Shown here: in pieces, positions 25 to 9,274 of the stretch | Numbering within the stretch: position 1 is the first letter of the stretch | Layout of the letters: each line of letters begins with the position of its first letter | Virus genome (UHGV): UHGV-0369329 | DNA: 23,752 nt | Strand: one strand, 5' to 3' | Origin: a virus | Notes under the pieces: generated by a model | Database searches by the model: none | Seen by the model: only the letters and a program-made list of their open reading frames with translations | Told to the model about the DNA's origin: nothing | Program-made: the position numbers and the translations under genes

Positions 25-99
25 GTCCTCTTAGTTAAATGGATATAACGAGCCCCTCCTAAGGGCTAATTGCAGGTTCGATTCCTGCAGGGGACACCA
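25..99 (+). tRNA. argW: tRNA-Arg, anticodon CCU, 75 nt with encoded CCA (argW-type)
   Basis: Cloverleaf readable directly: acceptor GTCCTCT/AGGGGAC, D-stem GTTA/TAAC, anticodon stem AGCCC/GGGCT with loop CTCCTAA (anticodon CCT), T-arm GCAGG-TTCGATT-CCTGC, discriminator A, CCA at 97-99. Sequence matches my recollection of E. coli argW. Confidence 0.9.
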
Positions 100-224: not shown

Positions 225-260
225 GTGGATAAAATAATTTTACCCACCGGATTTTTACCC

Positions 261-1418
261 ATGCTCACCGTTAAGCAGATTGAAGCAGCAAAGCCGAAAG
301 AAAAACCATACCGCCTTCTCGATGGTAATGGCCTGTACCTTTATGTTCCTGTATCCGGGAAAAAGGTATGGCAGCTTCGCTACAAGATTGACGGTAAGGA
401 AAAAATACTGACCGTCGGAAAATATCCGCTTATGACTTTGCAGGAGGCAAGGGATAAAGCATGGACCGCGAGGAAAGACATCTCGGTTGGCATCGATCCG
501 GTAAAAGCGAAAAAGGCTTCGTCTAATAACAATTCCTTTAGCGCCATTTACAAGGAATGGTACGAGCACAAGAAGCAAGTATGGTCAGTAGGGTATGCGA
601 CTGAACTTGCCAAAATGTTTGATGACGACATTTTACCCATCATCGGCGGCCTTGAGATTCAGGATATTGAGCCGATGCAACTGCTGGAAGTAATCCGCAG
701 ATTTGAAGATCGCGGTGCAATGGAGCGAGCCAACAAAGCCCGCAGAAGATGCGGCGAGGTTTTCCGTTACGCTATTGTCACCGGAAGGGCTAAATATAAC
801 CCAGCACCTGACCTTGCTGACGCCATGAAAGGATACCGCAAGAAGAACTTCCCGTTTCTTCCAGCAGACCAGATCCCTGCATTCAACAAAGCACTGGCAA
901 CATTTTCAGGAAGCATCGTATCGCTCATTGCGACCAAAGTTTTACGCTACACAGCCCTAAGAACGAAAGAGCTTCGTTCCATGCAATGGAAGAACGTCGA
1001 TTTTGAAAACAGGATTATCACTATCGACGCCAGTGTGATGAAGGGCCGCAAGATTCATGTTGTTCCTATGTCAGACCAGGTGGTTGAACTTCTCACTACG
1101 CTAAGCTCCATCACTAAACCAGTATCAGAGTTTGTTTTTGCCGGGCGCAACGATAAGAAGAAGCCAATCTGCGAGAACGCGGTATTGCTTGTGATCAAAC
1201 AAATCGGCTATGAGGGTCTGGAAAGCGGTCACGGATTCAGGCATGAATTCAGCACGATTATGAACGAGCACGAATGGCCTGCCGACGCCATTGAAGTGCA
1301 ACTGGCACATGCCAACGGCGGTTCTGTGCGCGGGATTTACAACCATGCTCAGTATCTCGATAAGCGCAGAGAAATGATGCAGTGGTGGGCGGACTGGCTT
1401 GATGAGAAGGTGGAGTGA
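261..1418 (+). CDS. intS: Tyrosine recombinase/integrase, P4-family with N-terminal DUF4102-type arm domain; IntS-like, 385 aa
   Basis: ORF track 225..1418 begins at a GTG; the in-frame ATG at 261 (MLTVKQIEAAKPKEKPYRLLDGNGLYLYV) gives 385 aa, matching the IntS N-terminus as I recall it. Catalytic signature present (HGFRHEF, VRGIYNHAQY). Lies directly downstream of the tRNA, co-directional. Confidence 0.9.
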   Translation: MLTVKQIEAAKPKEKPYRLLDGNGLYLYVPVSGKKVWQLRYKIDGKEKILTVGKYPLMTLQEARDKAWTARKDISVGIDPVKAKKASSNNNSFSAIYKEWYEHKKQVWSVGYATELAKMFDDDILPIIGGLEIQDIEPMQLLEVIRRFEDRGAMERANKARRRCGEVFRYAIVTGRAKYNPAPDLADAMKGYRKKNFPFLPADQIPAFNKALATFSGSIVSLIATKVLRYTALRTKELRSMQWKNVDFENRIITIDASVMKGRKIHVVPMSDQVVELLTTLSSITKPVSEFVFAGRNDKKKPICENAVLLVIKQIGYEGLESGHGFRHEFSTIMNEHEWPADAIEVQLAHANGGSVRGIYNHAQYLDKRREMMQWWADWLDEKVE

Positions 1419-1498: not shown

Positions 1499-3496
1499 TT
1501 ATATTGCAGATATTATAAAACATAATAATTCTTCATATCTTATTCCATATCGCTCACCCCCTTCTATAGATATTCTGCGTTCTCCAGTATCATATTCAAT
1601 TAATTTTTCATCACCGGATTCTTCATCAAAAATTATCTTTTTAGCAATTACTGGTTCGTATTCAGTTTCCCATTTATCATAGCAAAAAAGACCATAGTCG
1701 TTTGCATCAAGCCCTTCTTCAGCAAATGCTTTATATACATCTTGGGCAATAATGCCAAAATGTAATCTAGCATTTTCTCCTTTTTCAATTACTGAATCTA
1801 TAAATCTAAAACAACAAACCAAACCCTTTATTTTATATGCAACACGTCTCTCTGCATCAGTAATCGGTCTTTTATCAGTCTTAACTCGACCATCCGATGT
1901 GTTAATCGTTGAAGTGCCAGCAAATATTGTATTCCACCTTCTGGATGCTGAACCGCAATTTCTAGCGTTATCTGTTGCTGGTTGTACCGACGCATCAAAA
2001 CGAGCATAATTATTCTCATCAGAAACAGGTCCCATCAATCCACTCAAAAAAGGGAGCCCGCTCTGATTAGCAATTATTAATTGGTTGTCACCTGAAGAAA
2101 TTGCCGAACCGGCATTGGTTCCGATAAATATATTACCTGTTCCAGAGCTTAACGATCTACCAGATCTATATCCAAGCATTACATTGTTACTTGCCGAACC
2201 AATAGAATTAAGTGAGTCGGCTCCTACTGCGACATTATTCATCCCTGTAGATGTGCCTGTATAAGGGTTATCTATAGAAGAAATCCCTCTTCCTGATCCG
2301 CTACCAATATATGTATTGTTATCTCCATTTGTAATCTCCCTTCCGGATGCATTGCCTATAAATGTGTTATTATTTAGAATGTTATAAGACAACCTTTTGC
2401 CTGATTGGTCTGTAACAATTCCAGCTCGCATTCCAGCCGCTCGACCTATTGCAACATTACCACTACCAGTATGAAGTTGTTGTAATGCACTTGATCCTAC
2501 TGCAACATTAAAATTTCCTTCTTTATTTTCATTTAGGGCATCGCGCCCAATTCCAATTATGTTACTAGCTGTGGTTGATTTTTTGCACGCATTCACACCA
2601 ATTGCTACAATCTCAGTGCCAGTGCATGGCGATGTATCTGTGAGATCGTCTTGAAGGGTATCACCTGATAATACACCTGTCCCAATTGCTGTAATGTTAT
2701 TGCCCGTGCTAATGTTTCTTCCTGCACTTGGTCCAATCGCAACAACTTGCCCGGATATATCATTTCCATTATATATCTTGCCAGCATCAAAACCAAAAAA
2801 AACATTTCCAATTGTCTGAGCAGGATTTGCAAATGGAATAGGTTCGTCTCCTTTACTTTGTATTATTTTACCAGGGCCATAAAATTTTCCATTAATATAG
2901 TTCTCAATTAAATAAGTACCTTGTGGAACATAAACACCGTCAGGTGAAACTGAAGATGCATAGGAAAATATATGTGTTGCGTCAATATTGCCATTAACAA
3001 TGTCGCTAACATCTTCATGTTTTACAAAATCAAGAATACTAATATTCTCTGCATTTTTATCATGCTGTGTTCGTTTTGTAGAATTAATTAAAGGTTGTTT
3101 TACTGTGATTAATGAATCACCAAGCCCATCATCTGAACTTAAAAGTTCTTGCCTTAACTGATCCGGGTCATACTTCAGCACATTAGGAAAATAAAACTGC
3201 TGCGCACCATATGCATCATAAACAGCCATAGAATGGCCTTGCACAGTTACGAACTTGGCAATCTGTCCGTTATATACCGGATATCCGGCAGCGTTAATGA
3301 TTATTGGTTGCGAAACAGGAATGTGAGAACCGTCTTCGTTCTCTACATAAACCTGAATCTGGTTTTCAGGATTTACCGGGTCAGTGTCAATTTTACCGAT
3401 ATAAATTTTGCCATTGGCTACGGCTTTAAAAGAACGCGCCATAGTGAAGAGTTGCGAAGGCATACTCACTACAACATTGGCTGTAATGTCTGTCAT
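1499..3496 (-). CDS. Tailspike/tail fibre: P22 gp9-like N-terminal head-binding domain, glycine-rich repeat fibre, C-terminal intramolecular chaperone (S74-type) domain
   Basis: N-terminus [43 protein letters not shown]...VLKYDPDQ matches the P22 tailspike head-binding domain. The middle has many G-x-x-A/N-rich repeats. The C-terminus has the TSDGRVK autoproteolysis-type motif followed by a chaperone-like domain. GGAG RBS lies 8 nt upstream of the ATG at 3496. Confidence 0.85.
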
Positions 3497-3628
3497 TTAA
3501 TTTGCTCCAGATACAAGGAATCGCCGCAGCATGGCTACGGTTGGCATTTGTTACATACCGAAACGGTACGATTGTTGATTTGTACAGTGGGTTTTACGAT
3601 GCCATTCCACCCATTTGGTGAGACATTG

Positions 3629-3886
3629 ATGATGTACAGCAAATACGATGAGGCGCAGTTCCACTTGAGGCTTACACACGAGTTGCACGCTAAGATTAAG
3701 CAGCGTGCAAAAATGAATAACAGGTCTATCAATTCCGAAATTGTGGCTACGATGGAAGAATCACTCTCCAAACCATCACCTGTAAGCGGGTATCGTGATG
3801 AAGAAGAGAGGCTGGCCTCATTAATCTCGGAACGAGTAAAAGAAGTTGCGGCTGAAATTCTAAGGAAAGAAAAAACCCGCGATTAA
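3629..3886 (+). CDS. Mnt-like ribbon-helix-helix repressor, 85 aa
   Basis: C-terminal part of track ORF 3233..3886. FHLRLTHELHAKIKQRAKMNNRSINSEIV...SKPSPVSGYRDEEERLASL aligns along its whole length with P22 Mnt as I recall it (FNFRMPMEVREKLKFRAEANGRSMNSELL...SKPSPVTGYRNDAERLADE). The 5' part of the track ORF is antisense to the tailspike gene. Confidence 0.75.
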   Translation: MMYSKYDEAQFHLRLTHELHAKIKQRAKMNNRSINSEIVATMEESLSKPSPVSGYRDEEERLASLISERVKEVAAEILRKEKTRD

Positions 3887-3900
3887 GCGGGTTTAGTTTT
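3873..3900. terminator. Bidirectional intrinsic terminator between convergent Mnt-like gene and antirepressor-type gene
   Basis: AAACCCGC-gattaa-GCGGGTTT, followed by AGTTTT on plus and by TTTCTTT on minus. The TAA stop of the Mnt-like gene (3884-3886) sits in the loop. Confidence 0.65.
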
Positions 3901-3912
3901 CATTATAAAATG

Positions 3913-4641
3913 TTACGCCACATTTGAGCCATGTAGCAGGTGTTGTAGTGCTTTAACGCCTTCAGAATTGTAACGGAACGCCTCTACCTGTTTGCTGGAA
4001 TGCGCCGATTTATCTAGGAAGAACTTCCCGTACTGCTCAGTTTTGAGGTTGTTTGCGTTAGCAATGCGACCAATCTTGTTGGCCGTTACTCCAAGCTGCT
4101 CTGCAACCTCCCCTGCTGAGTAGTAATGCTCTTCTATTGCCGGAAGAGGTATTGCATTAAAACCAACGAGCGGGTTGATTATACTTGCTGCCGCTGTCTG
4201 CTTTGCCTCAGGCGCAAGATTTGGCATCAGATCGAACAGATTGGTAACAGCTTCAACCGTCATTTTCAATGTTCTCGCTTGACGATACTCAACAAGTCCA
4301 CTCGCTGATTTACCGCTTTTAATGTGCGCTTCTTGCATACTTTCAAGTTGGTCTACCAGTGAGCGGCGAACGGCTTTTGACTCGCGAGCGGCAACTCGCA
4401 ATGCTTGCTTGATTGACATCTCAATGATAACCATCGAAGTTTTGTTCGCTTTTTGCACTACACTTTTTGTGTAGTGCTCTCCATCCAATTCATCTTCAAT
4501 TTTCTCGATGAATTTGTTATTACGAACCTCCGGCTCACCGCACTGTCTACGAGCCTGATTTACCATCTCAAGCAGGCGCTGGCTGTCAATGGTTTTATCC
4601 GTGACAACGGATCCGATGTTTGCTACATTCTTAAAAGTCAT
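3913..4641 (-). CDS. Antirepressor-type protein with C-terminal KilAC/ANT-like segment, 242 aa
   Basis: Start moved to the ATG at 4641 (MTFKNVANIG...), which has an AAGGAA RBS 6 nt upstream; the track ORF starts 17 codons earlier without an RBS. C-terminal YSAGEVAEQLGVTANKIGRIANANNLKTEQYGKFF resembles the KilAC/ANT domain of phage antirepressors. Family assignment is from memory. Confidence 0.55.
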   Translation of the reverse strand: MTFKNVANIGSVVTDKTIDSQRLLEMVNQARRQCGEPEVRNNKFIEKIEDELDGEHYTKSVVQKANKTSMVIIEMSIKQALRVAARESKAVRRSLVDQLESMQEAHIKSGKSASGLVEYRQARTLKMTVEAVTNLFDLMPNLAPEAKQTAAASIINPLVGFNAIPLPAIEEHYYSAGEVAEQLGVTANKIGRIANANNLKTEQYGKFFLDKSAHSSKQVEAFRYNSEGVKALQHLLHGSNVA

Positions 4642-4710
4642 TAGGCATTCCTTATGTGGTAGTAAGGGTGTGACATAGGCCGCCAGCAGCACACTGGCGG
4701 TTTTCTTTTT
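4636..4710 (+). ncRNA. Candidate sar-like antisense RNA, about 75 nt, opposite the RBS and start of the 3913..4641 gene
   Basis: Extended -10 TGcTACATT at 4621-4629 (possible -35 GTGACA at 4601-4606, 17-bp spacer). Intrinsic terminator CCGCCAG-cagcaca-CTGGCGG at 4680-4700 followed by TTTTCTTTTT at 4701-4710. The transcript would be complementary to the AAGGAA RBS (4648-4653) and ATG (4639-4641) of the minus-strand gene. No credible plus-strand CDS here. Confidence 0.45.
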
Positions 4711-4729
4711 GCGCCGTCCGGCGCACCAA

Positions 4730-5356
4730 TCAATGAATCCATTCCTCGCCGCGCAGTTTTGCCAGCATTGGCTGAGCGTTCTTTACGACAAAATTGTTGG
4801 TATCAAGATTCTTCATTTCACGAAGAAGTGATTTCTTGGTTTCTTCTGACATATAGCGAGTCTCATATGCGATATCGTAAATCCTTCCTGAAAGCTCAGA
4901 ACAAATTTGCTTCATTCCTGGGTAGATGTGTTTGCACATTTGTTGACTCTTCTCCATCCACAATTGTAAGTAGCAGAGATTAACCAGTTCTTCGTCAGTA
5001 AACTGTTTTGCAATCGGTGAGCATTCTGCCTGCCGATCCAAAATATCCAGCACCCAGCGGCGGAACTCTTTGGCTACCGGAGTGCGAGCAAACATCGCGA
5101 TTAGGTGGGCACCGCGTAGTGAGAAAACTCGCACTTTTTTGCGATAATTTCCTGAGGTACTCACTTCGAGTACCTGAGTCATTCCGGCGCTAAACTCATC
5201 GCTATACTTGTTATAAATCATTGTTACTGCACGACTATTTGCGTATTTAAGTGCAGATGCAATATTAGATGATGTAAACCAAACACCATGCATATCACGG
5301 GTGGGCACCAACTCAACTCCGTGGAAGTTGTAATCTGATTTTGCTACAATATTCAT
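4730..5356 (-). CDS. Antirepressor (Ant-like) with Bro-N/AntA-type N-terminal domain, 208 aa
   Basis: Start moved to the ATG at 5356 (MNIVAKSDYNFHGVELVP...) with an AAGGAA RBS. HGVWFTSSNIASALKYANSRAVTMI...VRVFSLRGAHLIAMFARTPVAKEFRRWVLDIL fits the Bro-N/antirepressor N-terminal pattern. Sits downstream of the Arc-like gene as in P22 arc-ant. Confidence 0.6.
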   Translation of the reverse strand: MNIVAKSDYNFHGVELVPTRDMHGVWFTSSNIASALKYANSRAVTMIYNKYSDEFSAGMTQVLEVSTSGNYRKKVRVFSLRGAHLIAMFARTPVAKEFRRWVLDILDRQAECSPIAKQFTDEELVNLCYLQLWMEKSQQMCKHIYPGMKQICSELSGRIYDIAYETRYMSEETKKSLLREMKNLDTNNFVVKNAQPMLAKLRGEEWIH

Positions 5357-5431
5357 GTTAGTTTCCTTGCATACGGTTACTGACATAGAAGCCCGACTCG
5401 TGTTCGCGCACTGTCGGGCTTCGCTATTTTT
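5357..5431 (+). ncRNA. Candidate sar-like antisense RNA, about 75 nt, opposite the ant RBS, terminating at the 3' end of the arc-like gene
   Basis: Extended -10 TGcTACAAT at 5342-5350. Terminator hairpin GAAGCCCGAC...GTCGGGCTTC (5388-5422) followed by TATTTTT (5425-5431). The transcript would cover the complement of the ant RBS (5364-5369). Same architecture as P22 sar (promoter near the ant start, terminator at the arc end). Confidence 0.5.
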
Positions 5432-5597
5432 ATGTCCTAGCATTCTTCTCTCCAATCAGTCCGTACACTTTTCTCAATTGATAAATAAGTTCCGTGTTGA
5501 ACTGTCGACACTCTTTTTCTCCATTTCTTTCAATCGCCTTCCTTACATCCTCTGGGAAACGAACCTTGCGTTGATACATGTCTTTTGCTTTTTCCAT
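5430..5597 (-). CDS. Arc-like small ribbon-helix-helix protein, 55 aa; below the length cutoff of the ORF track
   Basis: Hand-translated codon by codon: MEKAKDMYQRKVRFPEDVRKAIERNGEKECRQFNTELIYQLRKVYGLIGEKNART. Strong RBS AAGGAG 5 nt before the ATG at 5597. A beta-strand-like QRKVRFPEDV followed by helix is RHH-like, though the NG...E motif is less canonical than in Arc. Position is upstream of ant and divergent from the Mnt-like gene, as for P22 arc. Confidence 0.5.
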   Translation of the reverse strand: MEKAKDMYQRKVRFPEDVRKAIERNGEKECRQFNTELIYQLRKVYGLIGEKNART

Positions 5598-5720
5598 CTC
5601 CACTCCTTAAATAGCCCCACTGTGGGGCAATCGAAATTGTCACACCGTGCGTCATTGAAGTCAACCCCACCGTGGGGCATAATTTACTTATTGTGAATTT
5701 TTCCTGTTTGGACTAATGGT
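5598..5720. promoter_or_regulatory. Divergent promoter/operator region (Pant-like leftward, Pmnt-like rightward) with twin palindromic operators
   Basis: Palindrome 1 GCCCCACtGTGGGGC at 5614-5628; palindrome 2 CCCCACcGTGGGG at 5665-5677. Plus-strand promoter TTGAAG (5655-5660), 17-bp spacer, CATAAT (5678-5683), with palindrome 2 in the spacer. Minus-strand promoter TTGACT (complement of 5659-5664), 17-bp spacer, GACAAT (complement of 5636-5641), with palindrome 1 over the predicted start/leader. The two -35 hexamers overlap. Confidence 0.6.
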
Positions 5721-6095
5721 ATGAGTAGAGAAGACCCTCAACTTCGGATTAGGCTTCCTGTTGAATTAAAAAAAATAATTGAAGCGTCATCAAAACAAAA
5801 TAATCGTTCTATGAATGCTGAGATTGTCACTCTGCTTGAGTTGGCGATTCGTGTTTGTCGTGATTTTGGGCCGGAGGATGGTCCTATCGTTCAGCAGTTT
5901 AAAGAACAACTAGATGCGATAAACAGAAAATATGATAAAATCGAGCATGAAAAACTTATACCTCAACTTTTAGAAATCATAGAAAAACAGAAAAAACAAG
6001 TAGATAAACTTATTAGCATGGTTGAAAGATCAATTCCTCTTTCAGAGGAATATAAGCAGAAATATCTTGGTGATGACAACAAAAAACCCACCTGA
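5721..6095 (+). CDS. Mnt-like RHH repressor with extended coiled-coil-like C-terminus, 124 aa; positional equivalent of P22 mnt
   Basis: N-terminus MSREDPQLRIRLPVELKKIIEASSKQNNRSMNAEIV matches the Mnt N-terminus (MARDDPHFNFRMPMEVREKLKFRAEANGRSMNSELL as I recall). Divergent from the arc-like gene with the operator region between. Confidence 0.7.
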   Translation: MSREDPQLRIRLPVELKKIIEASSKQNNRSMNAEIVTLLELAIRVCRDFGPEDGPIVQQFKEQLDAINRKYDKIEHEKLIPQLLEIIEKQKKQVDKLISMVERSIPLSEEYKQKYLGDDNKKPT

Positions 6096-6105
6096 CGGTG
6101 GGTTT
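6084..6105. terminator. Bidirectional intrinsic terminator between convergent Mnt-like gene and the 322-aa gene
   Basis: AAACCCACC-tgac-GGTGGGTTT; on the minus strand followed by TTTTTTGTT. The TGA stop of the Mnt-like gene (6093-6095) lies in the loop. Confidence 0.6.
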
Positions 6106-6110
6106 CATAA

Positions 6111-7079
6111 TTAGATTTCTGGTTTCATTCTTCCGAAAACCTTTTCTATTCCTTTTTCGTATTCTTCTCTTGTCTCACTCATCGCTGCGACACCAAGAAG
6201 CTTACCGATATGCTGACGCAAAGCCTTGACACCAATTTCAGAAAGGAACAGATGCAACTTATCAGATTGTTTTCCGTTCTCGTCTCGGCTGGCTCTAATT
6301 TGTTCAAGGATTTTACCTTTACTCTTTGCTAGCGGGGTGTATATCTGCATGTTGGTTAGCTGCCCAAAACGAATAGGCCGTCCTTTCTCTGGCCTATTCA
6401 GGCCGTACAGTCGATACCACTCCTCGTATAGCTCATCTGGAAATTCCTTTTCATATTGACGAGCCTCTTCACGAACAAACGCTTTGAACTCGTCAATGAC
6501 AGCCTGAACTTCTGGACGATAACCAGCAAGCGCATACGCAACCCCCTTAATTCCCGCCTTAGCGGAGGCATTAATAAGTCTCTGTGCTGCGGCGGCTGCC
6601 TTTAACCGTGATTGTGGTAGATCGTCATTATCTTTGGCTTCTATTAGTGCCCTACCAATATCAACAATTGCTGTAATGTCATAACCTAACGCTTGATGAA
6701 CGGTTTTAGACTTCGAAGTAAGTTGAAATTTATAGGGATTTTCCATTTTTCGCTGCAATTCTAGATCTCGGTATTTGCTCATATACTGAGCGCCAAGCAG
6801 TTGATCTAAATCCCTGGCATGTTCACCAATCCCTAGCAACTGAGATAATCCAGTTTTCGTAACAACGACAGTTTTCGACTCGTCATCCAGTACATAACAT
6901 TCAGCATCAATGCCAAAATCATCTAAAAAGTTACCACGATGAGTTGCCCTGAGAATCTTACTTTTCCATCTTGCAGCAGCTGCTTTCTTTGCTATTTCAG
7001 AACGCTGCTCTTTAGTCAGCGACTTTGCGCGAGCGATCCCGCCCTTAGCTTTCCCTTCGCCACTTTTCTTTTCAGTCAT
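6111..7079 (-). CDS. Hypothetical 322-aa protein in the sieA/accessory slot; basic N-terminus with HTH-like SEIAKKAAAARW motif
   Basis: Start moved to the ATG at 7079 (MTEKKSGEGKAKGGIARAKSLTKEQRSEIAKKAAAARW...). Hydrophilic with no obvious TM segment. Not recognisable as any P22 structural protein. A possible P63C-type assignment is only a vague recollection. Confidence 0.55.
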   Translation of the reverse strand: MTEKKSGEGKAKGGIARAKSLTKEQRSEIAKKAAAARWKSKILRATHRGNFLDDFGIDAECYVLDDESKTVVVTKTGLSQLLGIGEHARDLDQLLGAQYMSKYRDLELQRKMENPYKFQLTSKSKTVHQALGYDITAIVDIGRALIEAKDNDDLPQSRLKAAAAAQRLINASAKAGIKGVAYALAGYRPEVQAVIDEFKAFVREEARQYEKEFPDELYEEWYRLYGLNRPEKGRPIRFGQLTNMQIYTPLAKSKGKILEQIRASRDENGKQSDKLHLFLSEIGVKALRQHIGKLLGVAAMSETREEYEKGIEKVFGRMKPEI

Positions 7080-7170
7080 AATGCAAGCACCTTTGTTGTG
7101 ATGTATGCTTGCATTATATACACTGTACACACATACAAGCAAGCATAAAGCTAAAACAAAATGCTTGCAT
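7080..7170. repeat. Four copies of a TGCTTGCATTA / ATGCWWGCAT motif in alternating orientation in a divergent intergenic region
   Basis: ATGCAAGCAC at 7081-7090 (reverse), ATGCTTGCAT at 7105-7114, AAGCAAGCAT at 7137-7146 (reverse, partial), ATGCTTGCAT at 7161-7170. Copies at 7105 and 7161 share ATGCTTGCATTA; the copy at 7081 abuts the start codon of the 322-aa gene. Confidence 0.6.
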
Positions 7171-7235
7171 TACAACCGCGCTACTCCAACTACACATTAT
7201 CATCTGGTATCCTGCGCAAAACTAAGGAGGTTGGT

Positions 7236-7424
7236 GTGAAGAAAAAATTTGTAAACGTTGCAAAGTGCGCAATTTTTATATTTTTTATGACCTTTTACGG
7301 ATTTAGTGCCGGAGAAGGTTTCGATCGTGATGCCAATGCATTCAGTTTCTTTTGTCTGTCTATAGTGGTCATAATTGTATGGGTGGAATTAAAGCAAACA
7401 TTGTTTCATGTGCTAGGGAAATAA
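7236..7424 (+). CDS. Small hydrophobic protein, 62 aa, two predicted TM helices; opposite strand to the late operon
   Basis: GTG start at 7236 preceded by a perfect AAGGAGG RBS (7223-7229) at 6-nt spacing. Product VKKKFVNVAKCAIFIFFMTFYGFSAGEGFDRDANAFSFFCLSIVVIIVWVELKQTLFHVLGK has two hydrophobic stretches. The track ORF starts at ATG 7161, which has no RBS. AT-rich, about 36% GC. Confidence 0.6.
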   Translation: MKKKFVNVAKCAIFIFFMTFYGFSAGEGFDRDANAFSFFCLSIVVIIVWVELKQTLFHVLGK

Positions 7425-7441
7425 CCATCCATGGCATTTAG

Positions 7442-9274
7442 TCACTGCTGTGTTGCCTCAGTGGCAAGCAGCGGTCTGATGGCATTCGCAGCGTTATTCA
7501 GCGCTCTTTCATAGGCTGGCGTTCCTGCTTTGGTGTTTGCCAGACGTAAGAGCGCATTCCTGGCCATAGGGCTTTCATAAACCCTCGACATAAGGCCAAT
7601 CCCTGTTTCCCCAGCCAATAGCGCGCCTCCGGTTTTTAGGTTACCAATAACCCTTACCAAAGGCGCGAGTGTCATGCCAGTCTTCGTCACAACATTAGCC
7701 TCAGATGCTCTTTTGGTAGCATCGAGAATAGATAACATCCCCTCTATCTCTTTTCCGTTCTTCCCACCAAATACAGTTTTAAACACCTGACCATTTGCTT
7801 GTTTTTGCAGCTTGCCAAGCTCGGTCATCATTTTCTGAGGGCTGTCACCTACCTTGTCAGCTATTTTGCTGATATATGCCGCCCTTAGCATGTCTTTACC
7901 TTTTTGATCGAGTTTCCCGTACAATCGAGCTATATCTGACCCATATTGTCCATACACAATGGTATTTACAGCCTCGGGAGTTAAATCTCCTTTGTTTAGA
8001 ACGTTTTTAAGGCGCGTTTGAGTTGCATGTGTTGCCATTTTTGCATAATCAGCTTTTCCCGCTCTCCATGCTGAAGCATCTTTTGGGCTAAGTCCTTTCG
8101 CTATAGATTTACTAAGGCTATTGGTTAGCGAGTTATAGACCCTGTCGACCATTGTTTGCGACATTGATGGCAGAACTGTACGATCGCCTTTTACGTCAAT
8201 GCGGAACTGAGTTCTCAGCTTATCAAGTAACTCAAAGGCATCATCTCCATTTGTTATCTCCTGAATGGCATTCTTATAATCATTAAGCGCAGAAATGGTC
8301 TGGGTGTCAGAAACACCTTTAAGTTTCCCAAGTTCGTTTACTGCTCCGTCGATAGCTCTTATGGCGCCACTTGTATCAACTGGCTTTCCAACCATTCTTC
8401 CTGACAGGCTGTTTAGTTTTGACTTGGCTAACGATTTTTCCCTTGCAACGCCTGACTTTAGACTATCAACGACTACAGATGGATCGTAGTCGCCGTATTT
8501 TTCGGTGAAGCGATTAACAAGCTTGGTTCTGGCATCCTGCTGTGCGGCTCTCATTGGTCCAGTACCAGCTATGACTCCTTCTGAGTAACCCTGCAGTTGA
8601 TTGCCAAGTTTTGTTTTTGGAGGAACTACATCCGATGTCATAACTGGTACATCTGCCGCAGCGGCACGCTTGAGCAATTGCTGATCTGCTGGTGATATTT
8701 CGCCACGAACAGCAGTAATTCCACGCCCTATTCCCTTTGCTGCTGCGGAAAGAACCCCCTGAGCGGCAAGGTTAACTCCGGCATTTTTAGCTGCATTTTG
8801 TGCGAAATCGCCTTCCTGATTTGCGGCCTCTGCCAGTGATCCAATAGCCATGCTTCCTGCCGTTCCAACTCCTGGAACTAAATACCCGCCAATTGTTTCT
8901 CCAGCTTGCGCATAAGGGTCTGTTGGTCGATCTACTGGACGATAGACATCGTCCAAAACCTTGGGGCCACCAAGCCCCTGGCTGATTGCATTAATCAGAC
9001 TTGCGCCACCCTGCAATACGTCAAATGGTATGTTTACCAGACCACGACCAGCCTGCTCTGCAATTTGCCCTGCACTTTGACCACCAGTGAGCCAATCGCC
9101 AGCTTGTTGCATCAATGATGGTTCTTCCCGTGTTGGTGCATTATTGTCCTGATTAACTGTTTGTTGCTGAACAGCCTGACCAGCAAAATACTCATCAATG
9201 GCGGTGCCAATATCTTCCGTGCTCGTACCATCAGGGAAGGTAAATGTCTTACCGTTTGCAGTTACTTTCATCAT
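7442..9274 (-). CDS. Ejection (injection) protein, P22 gp16 homologue, 610 aa
   Basis: Size and position (last gene of the virion module, after the gp20 homologue) match P22 gene 16 (609 aa). Assignment is by synteny and length rather than recalled sequence. Confidence 0.8.

What the first reader, a model, noticed from the sequence alone, without database searches (positions are those of the whole stretch)
7080..7170. Four copies of a TGCTTGCATTA motif in alternating orientation in the divergent intergenic region
Four copies of a 10-12 nt motif in 90 bp is far above chance. One copy abuts the start codon of the 322-aa gene and another coincides with the upstream in-frame ATG of the small membrane ORF. 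The array probably forms the operator/promoter set controlling both divergent accessory genes, possibly bound by the 322-aa HTH protein itself.
Basis: seen in the sequence. Interest (0 to 1): 0.5.

Follow-up and report, generated by a model that had tools for sequence, protein, structure and literature searches.

The report
Conserved four-box operator of P63C gene
The four repeats are real and form a four-site control array built into the promoter of the neighbouring 322-aa gene; the same array travels with that gene family in phages and IS1-type transposons across many bacterial phyla, most likely so that the protein can switch off its own gene.

Summary
TGCTTGCATTA occurs exactly three times in the window (7079-7089 -, 7106-7116 +, 7162-7172 +). 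A fourth, degenerate copy lies at 7137-7146 (-), and orientation alternates. The window is a P22-like prophage. The 322-aa gene (6111-7079, -) is a P63C-domain protein with no recognisable HTH.

Comparison with about 230 related loci shows a four-box array. The boxes read ATGCAAGCAT / ATGCTTGCAT / TAnnATGCAAGCAT / ATGCTTGCAT-start, with start-to-start spacings of 22-24, 31-32 and 23-24 bp. This array sits upstream of P63C genes from many phyla, while the spacers and most of the protein diverge. Box 3 contains the -35, box 2 overlaps the -10 and +1, and box 1 lies between the SD and the ATG. In a blind DNA-pattern scan, 79 of 80 arrays abut a P63C gene. The motif is absent elsewhere in a complete related phage.

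The boxes co-occur with an equally conserved N-terminal basic two-helix motif, GGxARAxxLxxExRxxIAxxAAxxRW. My best explanation is negative autoregulation by the P63C protein; binding itself is inferred, not shown. No compensatory changes support an RNA hairpin. Control of the divergent small ORF is not supported in this window. Outside the enterics the gene is a passenger of a three-gene IS1-family element.

The parts
7081..7090 (-). It lies between the Shine-Dalgarno sequence and the ATG.
   Evidence: The consensus at this position in 95 arrays is gTGCTTGCAt, preceded by a purine-rich SD.
7105..7114 (+). Box 2 (ATGCTTGCAT on +, ATGCAAGCAT on the gene strand). Its first two bases on the gene strand are the last two of the -10 hexamer, and the predicted transcription start falls at its 3' end.
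7137..7146 (-). Box 3, the degenerate copy (ATGCTTGCTT on the - strand). It contains the -35 hexamer.
   Evidence: I4, I9. The box-3 consensus is aTGCTTGC(a/t)t.
7161..7170 (+). Box 4 (ATGCTTGCAT on +, ATGCAAGCAT on the gene strand). It is the upstream auxiliary site, about 60 bp upstream of the predicted start.
7113..7118 (-). Predicted -10 hexamer TATAAT of the 322-aa gene promoter.
   Evidence: Read from the sequence. In 95 arrays this position reads T82 A87 t51 a57 A83 T92. The simple promoter scan missed it because the -35 scores only 3/6.
7137..7142 (-). Predicted -35 hexamer TTGCTT, with an 18-bp spacer to the -10. It lies inside box 3.
   Evidence: The box3-to-box2 spacing of 31-32 bp in 85 of 95 arrays equals a 17-18-bp spacer.
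7090..7094 (-). Shine-Dalgarno sequence AAAGG of the 322-aa gene.
   Evidence: A purine-rich stretch precedes box 1 across the family.
6111..7079 (-). 322-aa P63C-domain gene, the gene that the array belongs to.
   Evidence: Pfam PF10546 at residues 199-286, E = 7e-14. phrog_2384, function unknown. 1682 homologues.
6966..7043 (-). Codons 13-38, the N-terminal basic two-helix motif GGIARAKSLTKEQRSEIAKKAAAARW. This is the proposed box-reading module.
   Evidence: Invariant residues G13 G14 R17 R26 A30 R37 W38. The motif is retained in homologues only 26-33% identical overall that still carry the array. It shares a recombination module with the promoter. The AlphaFold models predict helices 11-20 and 23-37 or 13-19 and 23-39.
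7123..7138 (-). LexA-like element TTGTATGTGTGTACAG (YTGT-N8-ACAG) in the promoter spacer. It is an enteric-specific add-on.
   Evidence: Found at a fixed offset in 28 of 95 arrays, all of enteric type. Not tested further.
7173..7424 (+). Separate module: a conserved 63-nt leader (7173-7235) plus a 62-aa small membrane ORF (GTG 7236-7424). It abuts box 4 but is not part of the conserved array.

Best explanation
The four copies are operator boxes (consensus ATGCWWGCAT, with asymmetric half-site AAGCAT) built into the sigma-70 promoter and translation start of the 322-aa P63C-domain gene. Box 3 carries the -35 (TTGCTT). Box 2 overlaps the -10 (TATAAT) and the predicted start point. Box 1 sits between the ribosome-binding site and the ATG. 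Box 4 lies about two helical turns upstream of box 3. I propose that the P63C protein binds these boxes through its conserved N-terminal basic two-helix motif (residues 13-38), probably as an oligomer that bridges the two inverted pairs (4/3 and 2/1). Binding would occlude RNA polymerase, giving negative autoregulation of a self-contained gene cassette. Shown here: the boxes, their fixed geometry relative to conserved -35/-10/SD/ATG elements, their conservation across phyla while the spacers diverge, and their near-exclusive association with P63C genes and with the N-terminal motif. Inferred: the transcription start, the identity of the binding protein, and the sign of regulation.
For: (1) 95 distinct arrays have near-invariant 8-bp cores, start-to-start spacings of 22-24 / 31-32 / 23-24 bp, and a conserved TAnnAT that ends in box 2. 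The window matches, with spacings of 24/32/24. (2) TGCWWGCA is enriched 284-fold upstream of homologues relative to their flanks. (3) Among close E. coli-type relatives, variable columns number 2/40 inside boxes against 14/56 outside (p = 0.012). (4) A blind DNA-pattern scan of viral contigs found 79 of 80 arrays abutting a P63C-family gene; the remaining one is at a contig end. (5) In the complete related phage ON470589 the motif occurs only here, and not at immC or immI. (6) The array is kept whether the upstream neighbour is a small divergent ORF, a terminator or a transposase. (7) The N-terminal motif is the most conserved part of the protein. It persists at 26-33% overall identity together with the array. 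It also forms one recombination module with the promoter in 54%-identical variants. (8) In IS1-type relatives a second element-encoded protein carries the same motif, and AAGCAT-type sites also sit at the other two promoters. (9) Deviations from the box consensus are almost never compensated in the partner box. This fits sequence-specific protein recognition rather than base pairing.
Confidence: 0.6

Rival explanations
1. The boxes act in RNA. In transcripts that cover the region (for example late-operon read-through from gene 16), the inverted copies would pair, either 4 with 1 and 3 with 2, or 4 with 3 and 2 with 1. This would form a stable structure that buries the start-codon region and controls translation, processing or termination.
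For: The arms are perfectly complementary (I3: 12/12). The 111-nt RNA folds at -44.9 kcal/mol with z = -5.4. The SD falls in the loop and the AUG abuts the stem. The gene is on the same strand as the late operon.
Against: The conserved -10 ends inside box 2, so the gene's own mRNA should lack box 2 and everything upstream of it. The stems are conserved in sequence, not merely in complementarity. Among pairs that deviate from the consensus, 74 are mismatches, 10 are G-U and only 5 are Watson-Crick. The recurrent box-1 variant TGCTTACA is never compensated. Rfam has no match. The same array occurs where no upstream co-directional transcription is expected, for instance after terminators or next to a divergent transposase.
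Confidence: 0.1
2. The boxes are operators for a different protein. Candidates are a host transcription factor, another phage regulator (immC repressor, Mnt/Arc), or, ancestrally, the IS1-type transposase or the small protein that carries the same motif.
For: The window protein has no recognised DNA-binding domain. In IS1-type elements two other element-encoded proteins are available, and the small one carries the same motif. The box contains TTGCAT, which from memory resembles the CytR octamer GTTGCATT. A LexA-like site sits in the spacer.
Against: The motif is absent from immC and immI of a complete related phage. The array keeps the same sequence in Proteobacteria, Acidobacteriota, Myxococcota, Firmicutes and other MAGs, which no host-specific factor explains. 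The transposase and the small protein are absent from the phage loci, and the IS ends do not resemble the boxes. The only gene always adjacent to the array is the P63C gene.
Confidence: 0.2
3. The repeats are DNA-level sites for recombination or transposition (a resolution site, an internal transposase site or an origin), or a functionless relic of a duplicated inverted repeat.
For: The family is linked to IS1-type elements. Loci such as L036 and L072 look like deletions between direct copies of the box.
Against: The element's terminal inverted repeats (GGTrGTGnnTCAGTTTGAA) are unrelated to the boxes and are absent from the window. The box positions are locked to the -35, -10, SD and ATG. Conservation across phyla while the spacers diverge excludes a neutral relic.
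Confidence: 0.05

Closest known systems
Multi-operator promoter control by phage repressors (lambda OR1-3/CI-Cro; P22 immI Omnt/Oarc with Mnt and Arc at Pant/Pmnt). Comparison drawn from established knowledge.
   Same: Several short quasi-palindromic sites overlap the -35, -10 and start of a promoter in a compact intergenic region. The regulator is encoded next to its sites. In IS1-type relatives the layout has back-to-back divergent promoters.
   Different: The box sequence (ATGCWWGCAT) and the 23/31/23 spacing with strictly alternating orientation are unlike any lambda or P22 operator. The motif is absent from immC and immI. The candidate binder has neither an HTH nor a ribbon-helix-helix domain. 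One site lies over the translation start.
IS1 InsA autoregulation (InsA binds the IS1 ends, which overlap the ins promoter). Comparison drawn from established knowledge.
   Same: This is an element-encoded regulator in an IS1-family element. Outside the enterics, the P63C gene and its array are an internal part of a three-gene IS1-family element.
   Different: The boxes are internal, not at the terminal inverted repeats, and are unrelated to them in sequence. The proposed regulator is a passenger protein, not an InsA-like Zn-ribbon/HTH protein. In the window there is no transposase and no IS end.
Autorepression of plasmid Rep and partition genes at inverted repeats overlapping their own promoter. 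Comparison drawn from established knowledge.
   Same: It is a portable self-regulating cassette that carries both its cis sites and its trans factor, so that expression is host-independent after horizontal transfer.
   Different: There is no evidence of a replication or partition function, and the protein family and site sequence are unrelated.

Membership tests
Promoter-overlapping operator array of an autoregulated gene | Repeated specific sites overlap the -35, -10/+1 or leader of the gene's own promoter. | tested here: met
   Box 3 contains TTGCTT (-35). Box 2 shares two bases with TATAAT (-10). Box 1 lies between the SD and the ATG. The same geometry is seen in 95 arrays.
Promoter-overlapping operator array of an autoregulated gene | The sites are conserved while the intervening sequence diverges. 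| tested here: met
   Variable columns number 2/40 inside boxes against 14/56 outside. Enrichment is 284-fold.
Promoter-overlapping operator array of an autoregulated gene | The sites are confined to the regulator's own locus and always accompany it. | tested here: met
   The motif occurs only here in complete phage ON470589. 79 of 80 blindly found arrays abut a P63C gene.
Promoter-overlapping operator array of an autoregulated gene | The gene product binds the sites and represses transcription. | not testable with these tools
   This needs EMSA or footprinting and reporter assays.
Promoter-overlapping operator array of an autoregulated gene | The product carries a recognised DNA-binding domain. 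| tested here: not met
Immunity-region (immC C2/CI) operators | The same motif is present at OR/OL next to the repressor gene. | tested here: not met
   No copy lies near cI/cro (12.6-13.6 kb) of ON470589. The copies lie only at 36.7-36.8 kb.
P22 immI operators (Mnt/Arc) | The sites lie between the divergent mnt and arc-ant promoters and co-occur with the Arc/Mnt genes. | tested here: not met
   The array lies beyond the 3' end of the mnt-like gene (5721-6095). There is no copy in 4700-6100. Arrays occur in genomes and IS elements that lack arc/mnt.
Cis-regulatory RNA hairpin or leader | Complementary arms give a stable predicted fold. | tested here: met
   (I1, I3, I9). One search gives -44.9 kcal/mol, z = -5.4.
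Cis-regulatory RNA hairpin or leader | Compensatory (covarying) substitutions maintain pairing. | tested here: not met
   Deviating pairs: 5 Watson-Crick, 10 G-U and 74 mismatches.
Cis-regulatory RNA hairpin or leader | Both arms lie within the transcript. | tested here: inconclusive
   The conserved -10 ends in box 2, which predicts a start at the 3' end of box 2. No 5'-end data are available, and read-through from upstream is possible in the phage.
Cis-regulatory RNA hairpin or leader | The region matches a curated RNA family. | tested here: not met
   Rfam at gathering thresholds finds only a tRNA at 25-96.
LexA (SOS) box | CTGT-N8-ACAG over the promoter. | tested here: inconclusive
   The window has TTGT-N8-ACAG at 7123-7138 (-). 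The same offset is seen in 28 enteric arrays, one of them (L063) with a perfect CTGT. No affinity score or binding test was done.
IS1-family insertion sequence (is the window locus itself an IS?) | Terminal inverted repeats and a DDE transposase flank the gene. | tested here: not met
   No TIR-like sequence with up to 3 mismatches is present. No transposase ORF adjoins the gene. These features are present only in non-enteric relatives.

The most novel reading that the evidence does not exclude
The ~26-residue basic two-helix motif (GGxARAxxLxxExRxxIAxxAAxxRW) and the ATGCWWGCAT/AAGCAT boxes form a previously undescribed, portable protein-DNA recognition pair. This pair has stayed almost unchanged across bacterial phyla. 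It wires the divergent promoters of a three-gene IS1-family transposon (transposase, P63C protein, small motif-bearing protein). P22-like prophages have captured the gene together with this pair as a self-regulating accessory cassette.
Probability: 0.45. Interest if true: 0.7.

Novelty: new variant of a known kind. Interest (0 to 1): 0.6.

Why it matters
P63C-domain proteins are common in prophages and mobile elements, yet they have no known function and almost no literature. The array supplies three concrete handles: a defined promoter, a defined 10-bp site, and a candidate new DNA-binding mini-domain. Together these make the family experimentally tractable. The array also shows that an accessory gene in the sieA/immI slot of P22-like prophages shares its regulatory cassette with a widespread three-gene IS1-family element. 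That links phage accessory genes and transposon passenger genes. A 10-bp operator kept nearly invariant from Firmicutes MAGs to E. coli is unusual. It could serve as a compact, host-independent, self-limiting expression module.

Tried and rejected
1. Immunity-repressor operators. Rejected because no copy lies at immC of a complete related phage.
2. Mnt/Arc operators. Rejected on position and on the distribution of the array.
3. RNA hairpin or riboswitch-like leader. The fold is stable, but there is no covariation, there is no Rfam hit, and the -10 lies inside the would-be stem.
4. Host-factor site. The CytR-like TTGCAT was recalled from memory. It was rejected as the general explanation because the array is conserved across phyla.
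5. IS end or transposase site. The TIRs are unrelated to the boxes and absent from the window.
7. Promoter for the small divergent ORF. No sigma-70-like promoter was found. Using box 4 as the -35 gives a poor -10 (AACTAC).
8. Literature searches. Searches for P63C, the motif strings, ISPa14 and ISMhu11 gave nothing relevant.
9. Unused tools. The metagenome scan and the representative-protein search were not used, because the viral and genome scans already gave about 230 loci.

Full report
**Context.** The window is a P22-like (Lederbergvirus) prophage arm. It starts with a tRNA (25-96) and an integrase (225-1418). On the minus strand it carries terminase, P22 portal, P22 coat, the ejection proteins and a tailspike with a P22 head-binding domain. 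Between the gp16-like gene (7442-9274, -) and an immI-like block lies the 322-aa gene (6111-7079, -). The immI-like block has an Arc/Mnt-like ORF at 5721-6095 (+) and antirepressor-like genes at 4730-5455 and 3913-4692 (-). A small ORF is divergent from the 322-aa gene. Its likely product runs from GTG 7236 to 7424 (62 aa), with SD AAGGAGG, and matches phrog_21338 over its full length. The finding lies in the 156-bp gap between these two genes.

**Observation.** TGCTTGCATTA occurs exactly at 7079-7089 (-), 7106-7116 (+) and 7162-7172 (+), and nowhere else in the window. A fourth, degenerate copy lies at 7146->7137 on the minus strand (ATGCTTGCTT, 9/10 of ATGCTTGCAT). Orientation alternates, and the region 7079-7172 as a whole is an imperfect dyad with 34-nt arms. 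Each box is itself nearly palindromic (ATGC-WW-GCAT). The one correction is that the ATG at 7161 inside copy 4 is unlikely to be a real start codon.

**Comparative evidence.**
- *Close relatives.* E. coli prophages and phage vB_EcoP-611R6 carry the gene plus the intergenic region as one module. The similarity breaks exactly at the start of the small ORF, which differs between phages.
- *Complete related phage.* In that complete phage genome the motif occurs only in this intergenic region, and not at cI/cro or arc/mnt.
- *Viral contigs.* A protein-guided scan gave 75 loci with 52-100% protein identity. The four boxes are kept at equivalent positions while the spacers diverge. The upstream neighbour is often a rho-independent terminator rather than a divergent gene.
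- *Genomes.* A profile-guided scan of one genome per species gave 80 further loci at 43-72% identity. They come from Enterobacterales, Burkholderiales, Rhodanobacter, Alphaproteobacteria, Myxococcota, Desulfobacterota, Acidobacteriota, Abditibacteria, Verrucomicrobia and Firmicutes MAGs. Most carry the same four boxes.
- *Summary of the arrays.* I collected 95 distinct arrays. Box 4 reads aTGCAAGCAt, box 3 aTGCTTGC(a/t)t, box 2 T-A-n-n-A-T-GCAAGCA(t/c), and box 1 (purine-rich)-gTGCTTGCAt. In distant members box 1 is followed directly by the start codon. Start-to-start distances are 22-24, 31-32 and 23-24 bp; the window has 24, 32 and 24.
- *Enrichment and orientation.* TGCWWGCA occurs at 13.1 per kb in the -170..+40 region of 132 distinct loci, against 0.046 per kb in their 820 kb of flanks, which is about the chance level. 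The orientation pattern AA-TT-AA-TT holds in 33 of 38 arrays with four exact cores.
- *Close E. coli-type variants.* Variable columns number 2/40 inside boxes and 14/56 outside (Fisher p = 0.012).
- *The converse test.* An exact DNA pattern for boxes 4-3-2 found at least 120 viral-contig stretches. Of the 80 examined, 79 abut a P63C-family gene and the last is cut by a contig end. These include homologues only 26-33% identical to the window protein.

**Anatomy and mechanism.**
- *Promoter.* The TAnnAT hexamer that ends with the first two bases of box 2 has the conservation profile of a sigma-70 -10 (T82 A87 t51 a57 A83 T92 out of 95). TTGCAT/TTGCTT inside box 3 lies 17-18 bp upstream of it. 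This explains why the box3-box2 distance (31-32 bp) differs from the other two.
- *Window coordinates (minus strand).* The -35 TTGCTT is at 7142->7137 and the -10 TATAAT at 7118->7113. The predicted start is near 7106. The SD AAAGG is at 7094->7090 and the ATG at 7079.
- *Consequence.* A protein bound to boxes 3 and 2 would occlude RNA polymerase. Box 1 adds a site over the ribosome-binding region of the DNA, and box 4 an upstream auxiliary site. Each inverted pair (AAGCAT - about 14 bp - ATGCTT) places its half-sites two helical turns apart on one face of the helix.
- *Which protein?* The only gene that always accompanies the array is the P63C gene. Its most conserved segment is the N-terminal GGxARAxxLxxExRxxIAxxAAxxRW, with invariant G13 G14 R17 R26 A30 R37 W38. 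This motif survives even where the rest of the protein has drifted to about 27-30% identity and the array is still present. In E. coli, a 54%-identical allele shares a near-identical promoter plus the first 39 codons with the window gene. Boxes and motif therefore recombine as one unit.
- *Conclusion.* I propose negative autoregulation through this motif. Binding and the sign of regulation are inferred, not shown.

**The IS1 connection.**
- *Layout.* In most non-enteric loci a 280-330-aa protein is encoded divergently. It has an InsA-like Zn ribbon and/or HTH and an IS1-type DDE region; Pfam DDE_Tnp_IS1 and NCBIfam transpos_IS1 match, but weakly.
- *Boundaries.* Three 99.9%-identical copies in one Kaistiaceae MAG delimit a 2.52-kb element with IS1-like terminal repeats (GGTgGTGCaTCAGTTTGAA).
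- *Gene content.* The element contains the transposase, the four-box region, the P63C gene and a third, convergent gene of 75-100 aa. The C-terminus of that third protein carries the same GGxARA...RW motif.
- *Divergent promoter.* On the opposite strand, box 4 offers TTGCAT 16-17 bp upstream of a TATAAT/CATAAT that lies just before the transposase ATG (read). In these elements the array therefore probably serves back-to-back promoters.
- *Extra sites.* Alphaproteobacterial copies add ATGCTT-N6-AAGCAT sites at the transposase 5' region and at the small gene's promoter.
- *Absent from the window.* None of this IS machinery is present there: no TIR, no transposase and no second motif-bearing ORF.

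**Rival explanations.**
- *RNA.* The 111-nt region would fold very stably as RNA (-44.9 kcal/mol, z = -5.4). However, the stems are conserved in sequence rather than only in complementarity. Substitutions are not compensated: 74 mismatches, 10 G-U and 5 Watson-Crick among deviating pairs. The conserved -10 lies inside the would-be stem, and Rfam has no match. An RNA role in late read-through transcripts of the phage cannot be excluded, but it cannot explain the conservation elsewhere.
- *Host factors.* These are unlikely as the general reader of the boxes, given the phylogenetic breadth of the array.
- *LexA.* A LexA-like YTGT-N8-ACAG sits at a fixed place in the promoter spacer in 28 enteric arrays, including the window (7123-7138), and in none of the others. 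This may add SOS control in enterics. It was not tested.
- *The small divergent ORF.* It has no predicted promoter. It belongs with its 63-nt leader, which occurs with many different small ORFs and also without the array. The claim that the array controls both genes is therefore unsupported here.

**Verdict.** It is wrong in detail: the protein is not a recognisable HTH protein, joint control of both genes is not demonstrated, and the in-frame ATG is not a start. The logic of the array (promoter-overlapping operators of a self-regulated cassette) is a known kind. Its sequence, geometry, phylum-wide invariance, candidate reading motif and dual life in IS1-type elements and P22-like prophages appear to be undescribed.

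Noticed in passing
window 7173-7235 (leader) and 7236-7424 (ORF); L005 2500-2556: A ~63-nt leader ending in SD AAGGAGG is conserved in E. coli/Salmonella P22-like prophages, but it precedes many unrelated small (mostly membrane) ORFs. It also occurs without the P63C gene. It looks like a cargo-swapping slot for small accessory genes next to gene 16.
   Followed up: partly
window 7123-7138 (- strand): A LexA-like TTGT-N8-ACAG lies in the spacer of the predicted promoter. The same element sits at the same offset in 28 of 95 arrays, all enteric (L063 has a perfect CTGT-N8-ACAG). It is absent from all non-enteric arrays.
   Followed up: partly
L151/L152/L154 1973-4493; also L086-L160 generally: Outside the enterics the P63C gene is the middle gene of a ~2.2-2.5 kb IS1-family element (TIR GGTrGTGnnTCAGTTTGAA, divergent transposase, convergent small gene). 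Three 99.9%-identical copies occur in one Kaistiaceae MAG.
   Followed up: partly
e.g. L091 3455-3685 (-), L114 3972-4208 (-), L151 3974-4285 (-): The small third gene of the IS1-type element ends with the same GGxARAxxLxxExRxEIAxKAAxxRW motif that begins the P63C protein. The motif is therefore a modular mini-domain used twice in one element.
   Followed up: partly
L036 and L072 (upstream of the gene start near 3001): Some loci keep only boxes 2 and 1. In L036 the sequence that flanks box 4 in its close relative L034 is joined directly to what follows box 2, as if recombination between the direct repeats had deleted the -35 region.
   Followed up: no
L004 2501-2774; L073-L080: P63C alleles only 54% identical to the window protein share a near-identical promoter and first ~39 codons with it. 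A recombination junction therefore lies right after the N-terminal motif.
   Followed up: partly
L099, L103, L107, L109, L115, L117, L126, L138 (upstream of the gene start): An Acidobacteriota clade of P63C genes lacks the standard boxes. Instead it has inverted repeats TATACTTGCyCGGG / CTCGGGCAAGTATA around a TTGACT promoter, together with a variant N-terminal motif (KGGEARA...AAIQARW). This may be co-variation of site and reader.
   Followed up: partly
L105, L114, L120, L142, L151, L158 (about -110 to -170 and +1200 to +1520 relative to the P63C start): Alphaproteobacterial IS copies carry a second site type, ATGCTT-N6-AAGCAT, at the transposase 5' region and again at the promoter of the small gene.
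   Followed up: no
window 3233-6095: The immI-like region is duplicated or mosaic. It has two Arc-domain ORFs (5721-6095 and the C-terminal part of 3233-3886) and two antirepressor-like genes (4730-5455 with Bro-N + P22_AR_C; 3913-4692 in phrog_1726).
   Followed up: no
window 1499-3496 (-): The tailspike combines a P22 head-binding domain with a Peptidase_S74 (endosialidase chaperone) domain and a weak endosialidase catalytic-domain hit, which suggests a capsule-specific receptor-binding module.
   Followed up: no
window 25-96 (+) and 225-1418 (+): A tRNA gene is followed by a tyrosine integrase at the left end, so the window includes the prophage attachment end.
   Followed up: no
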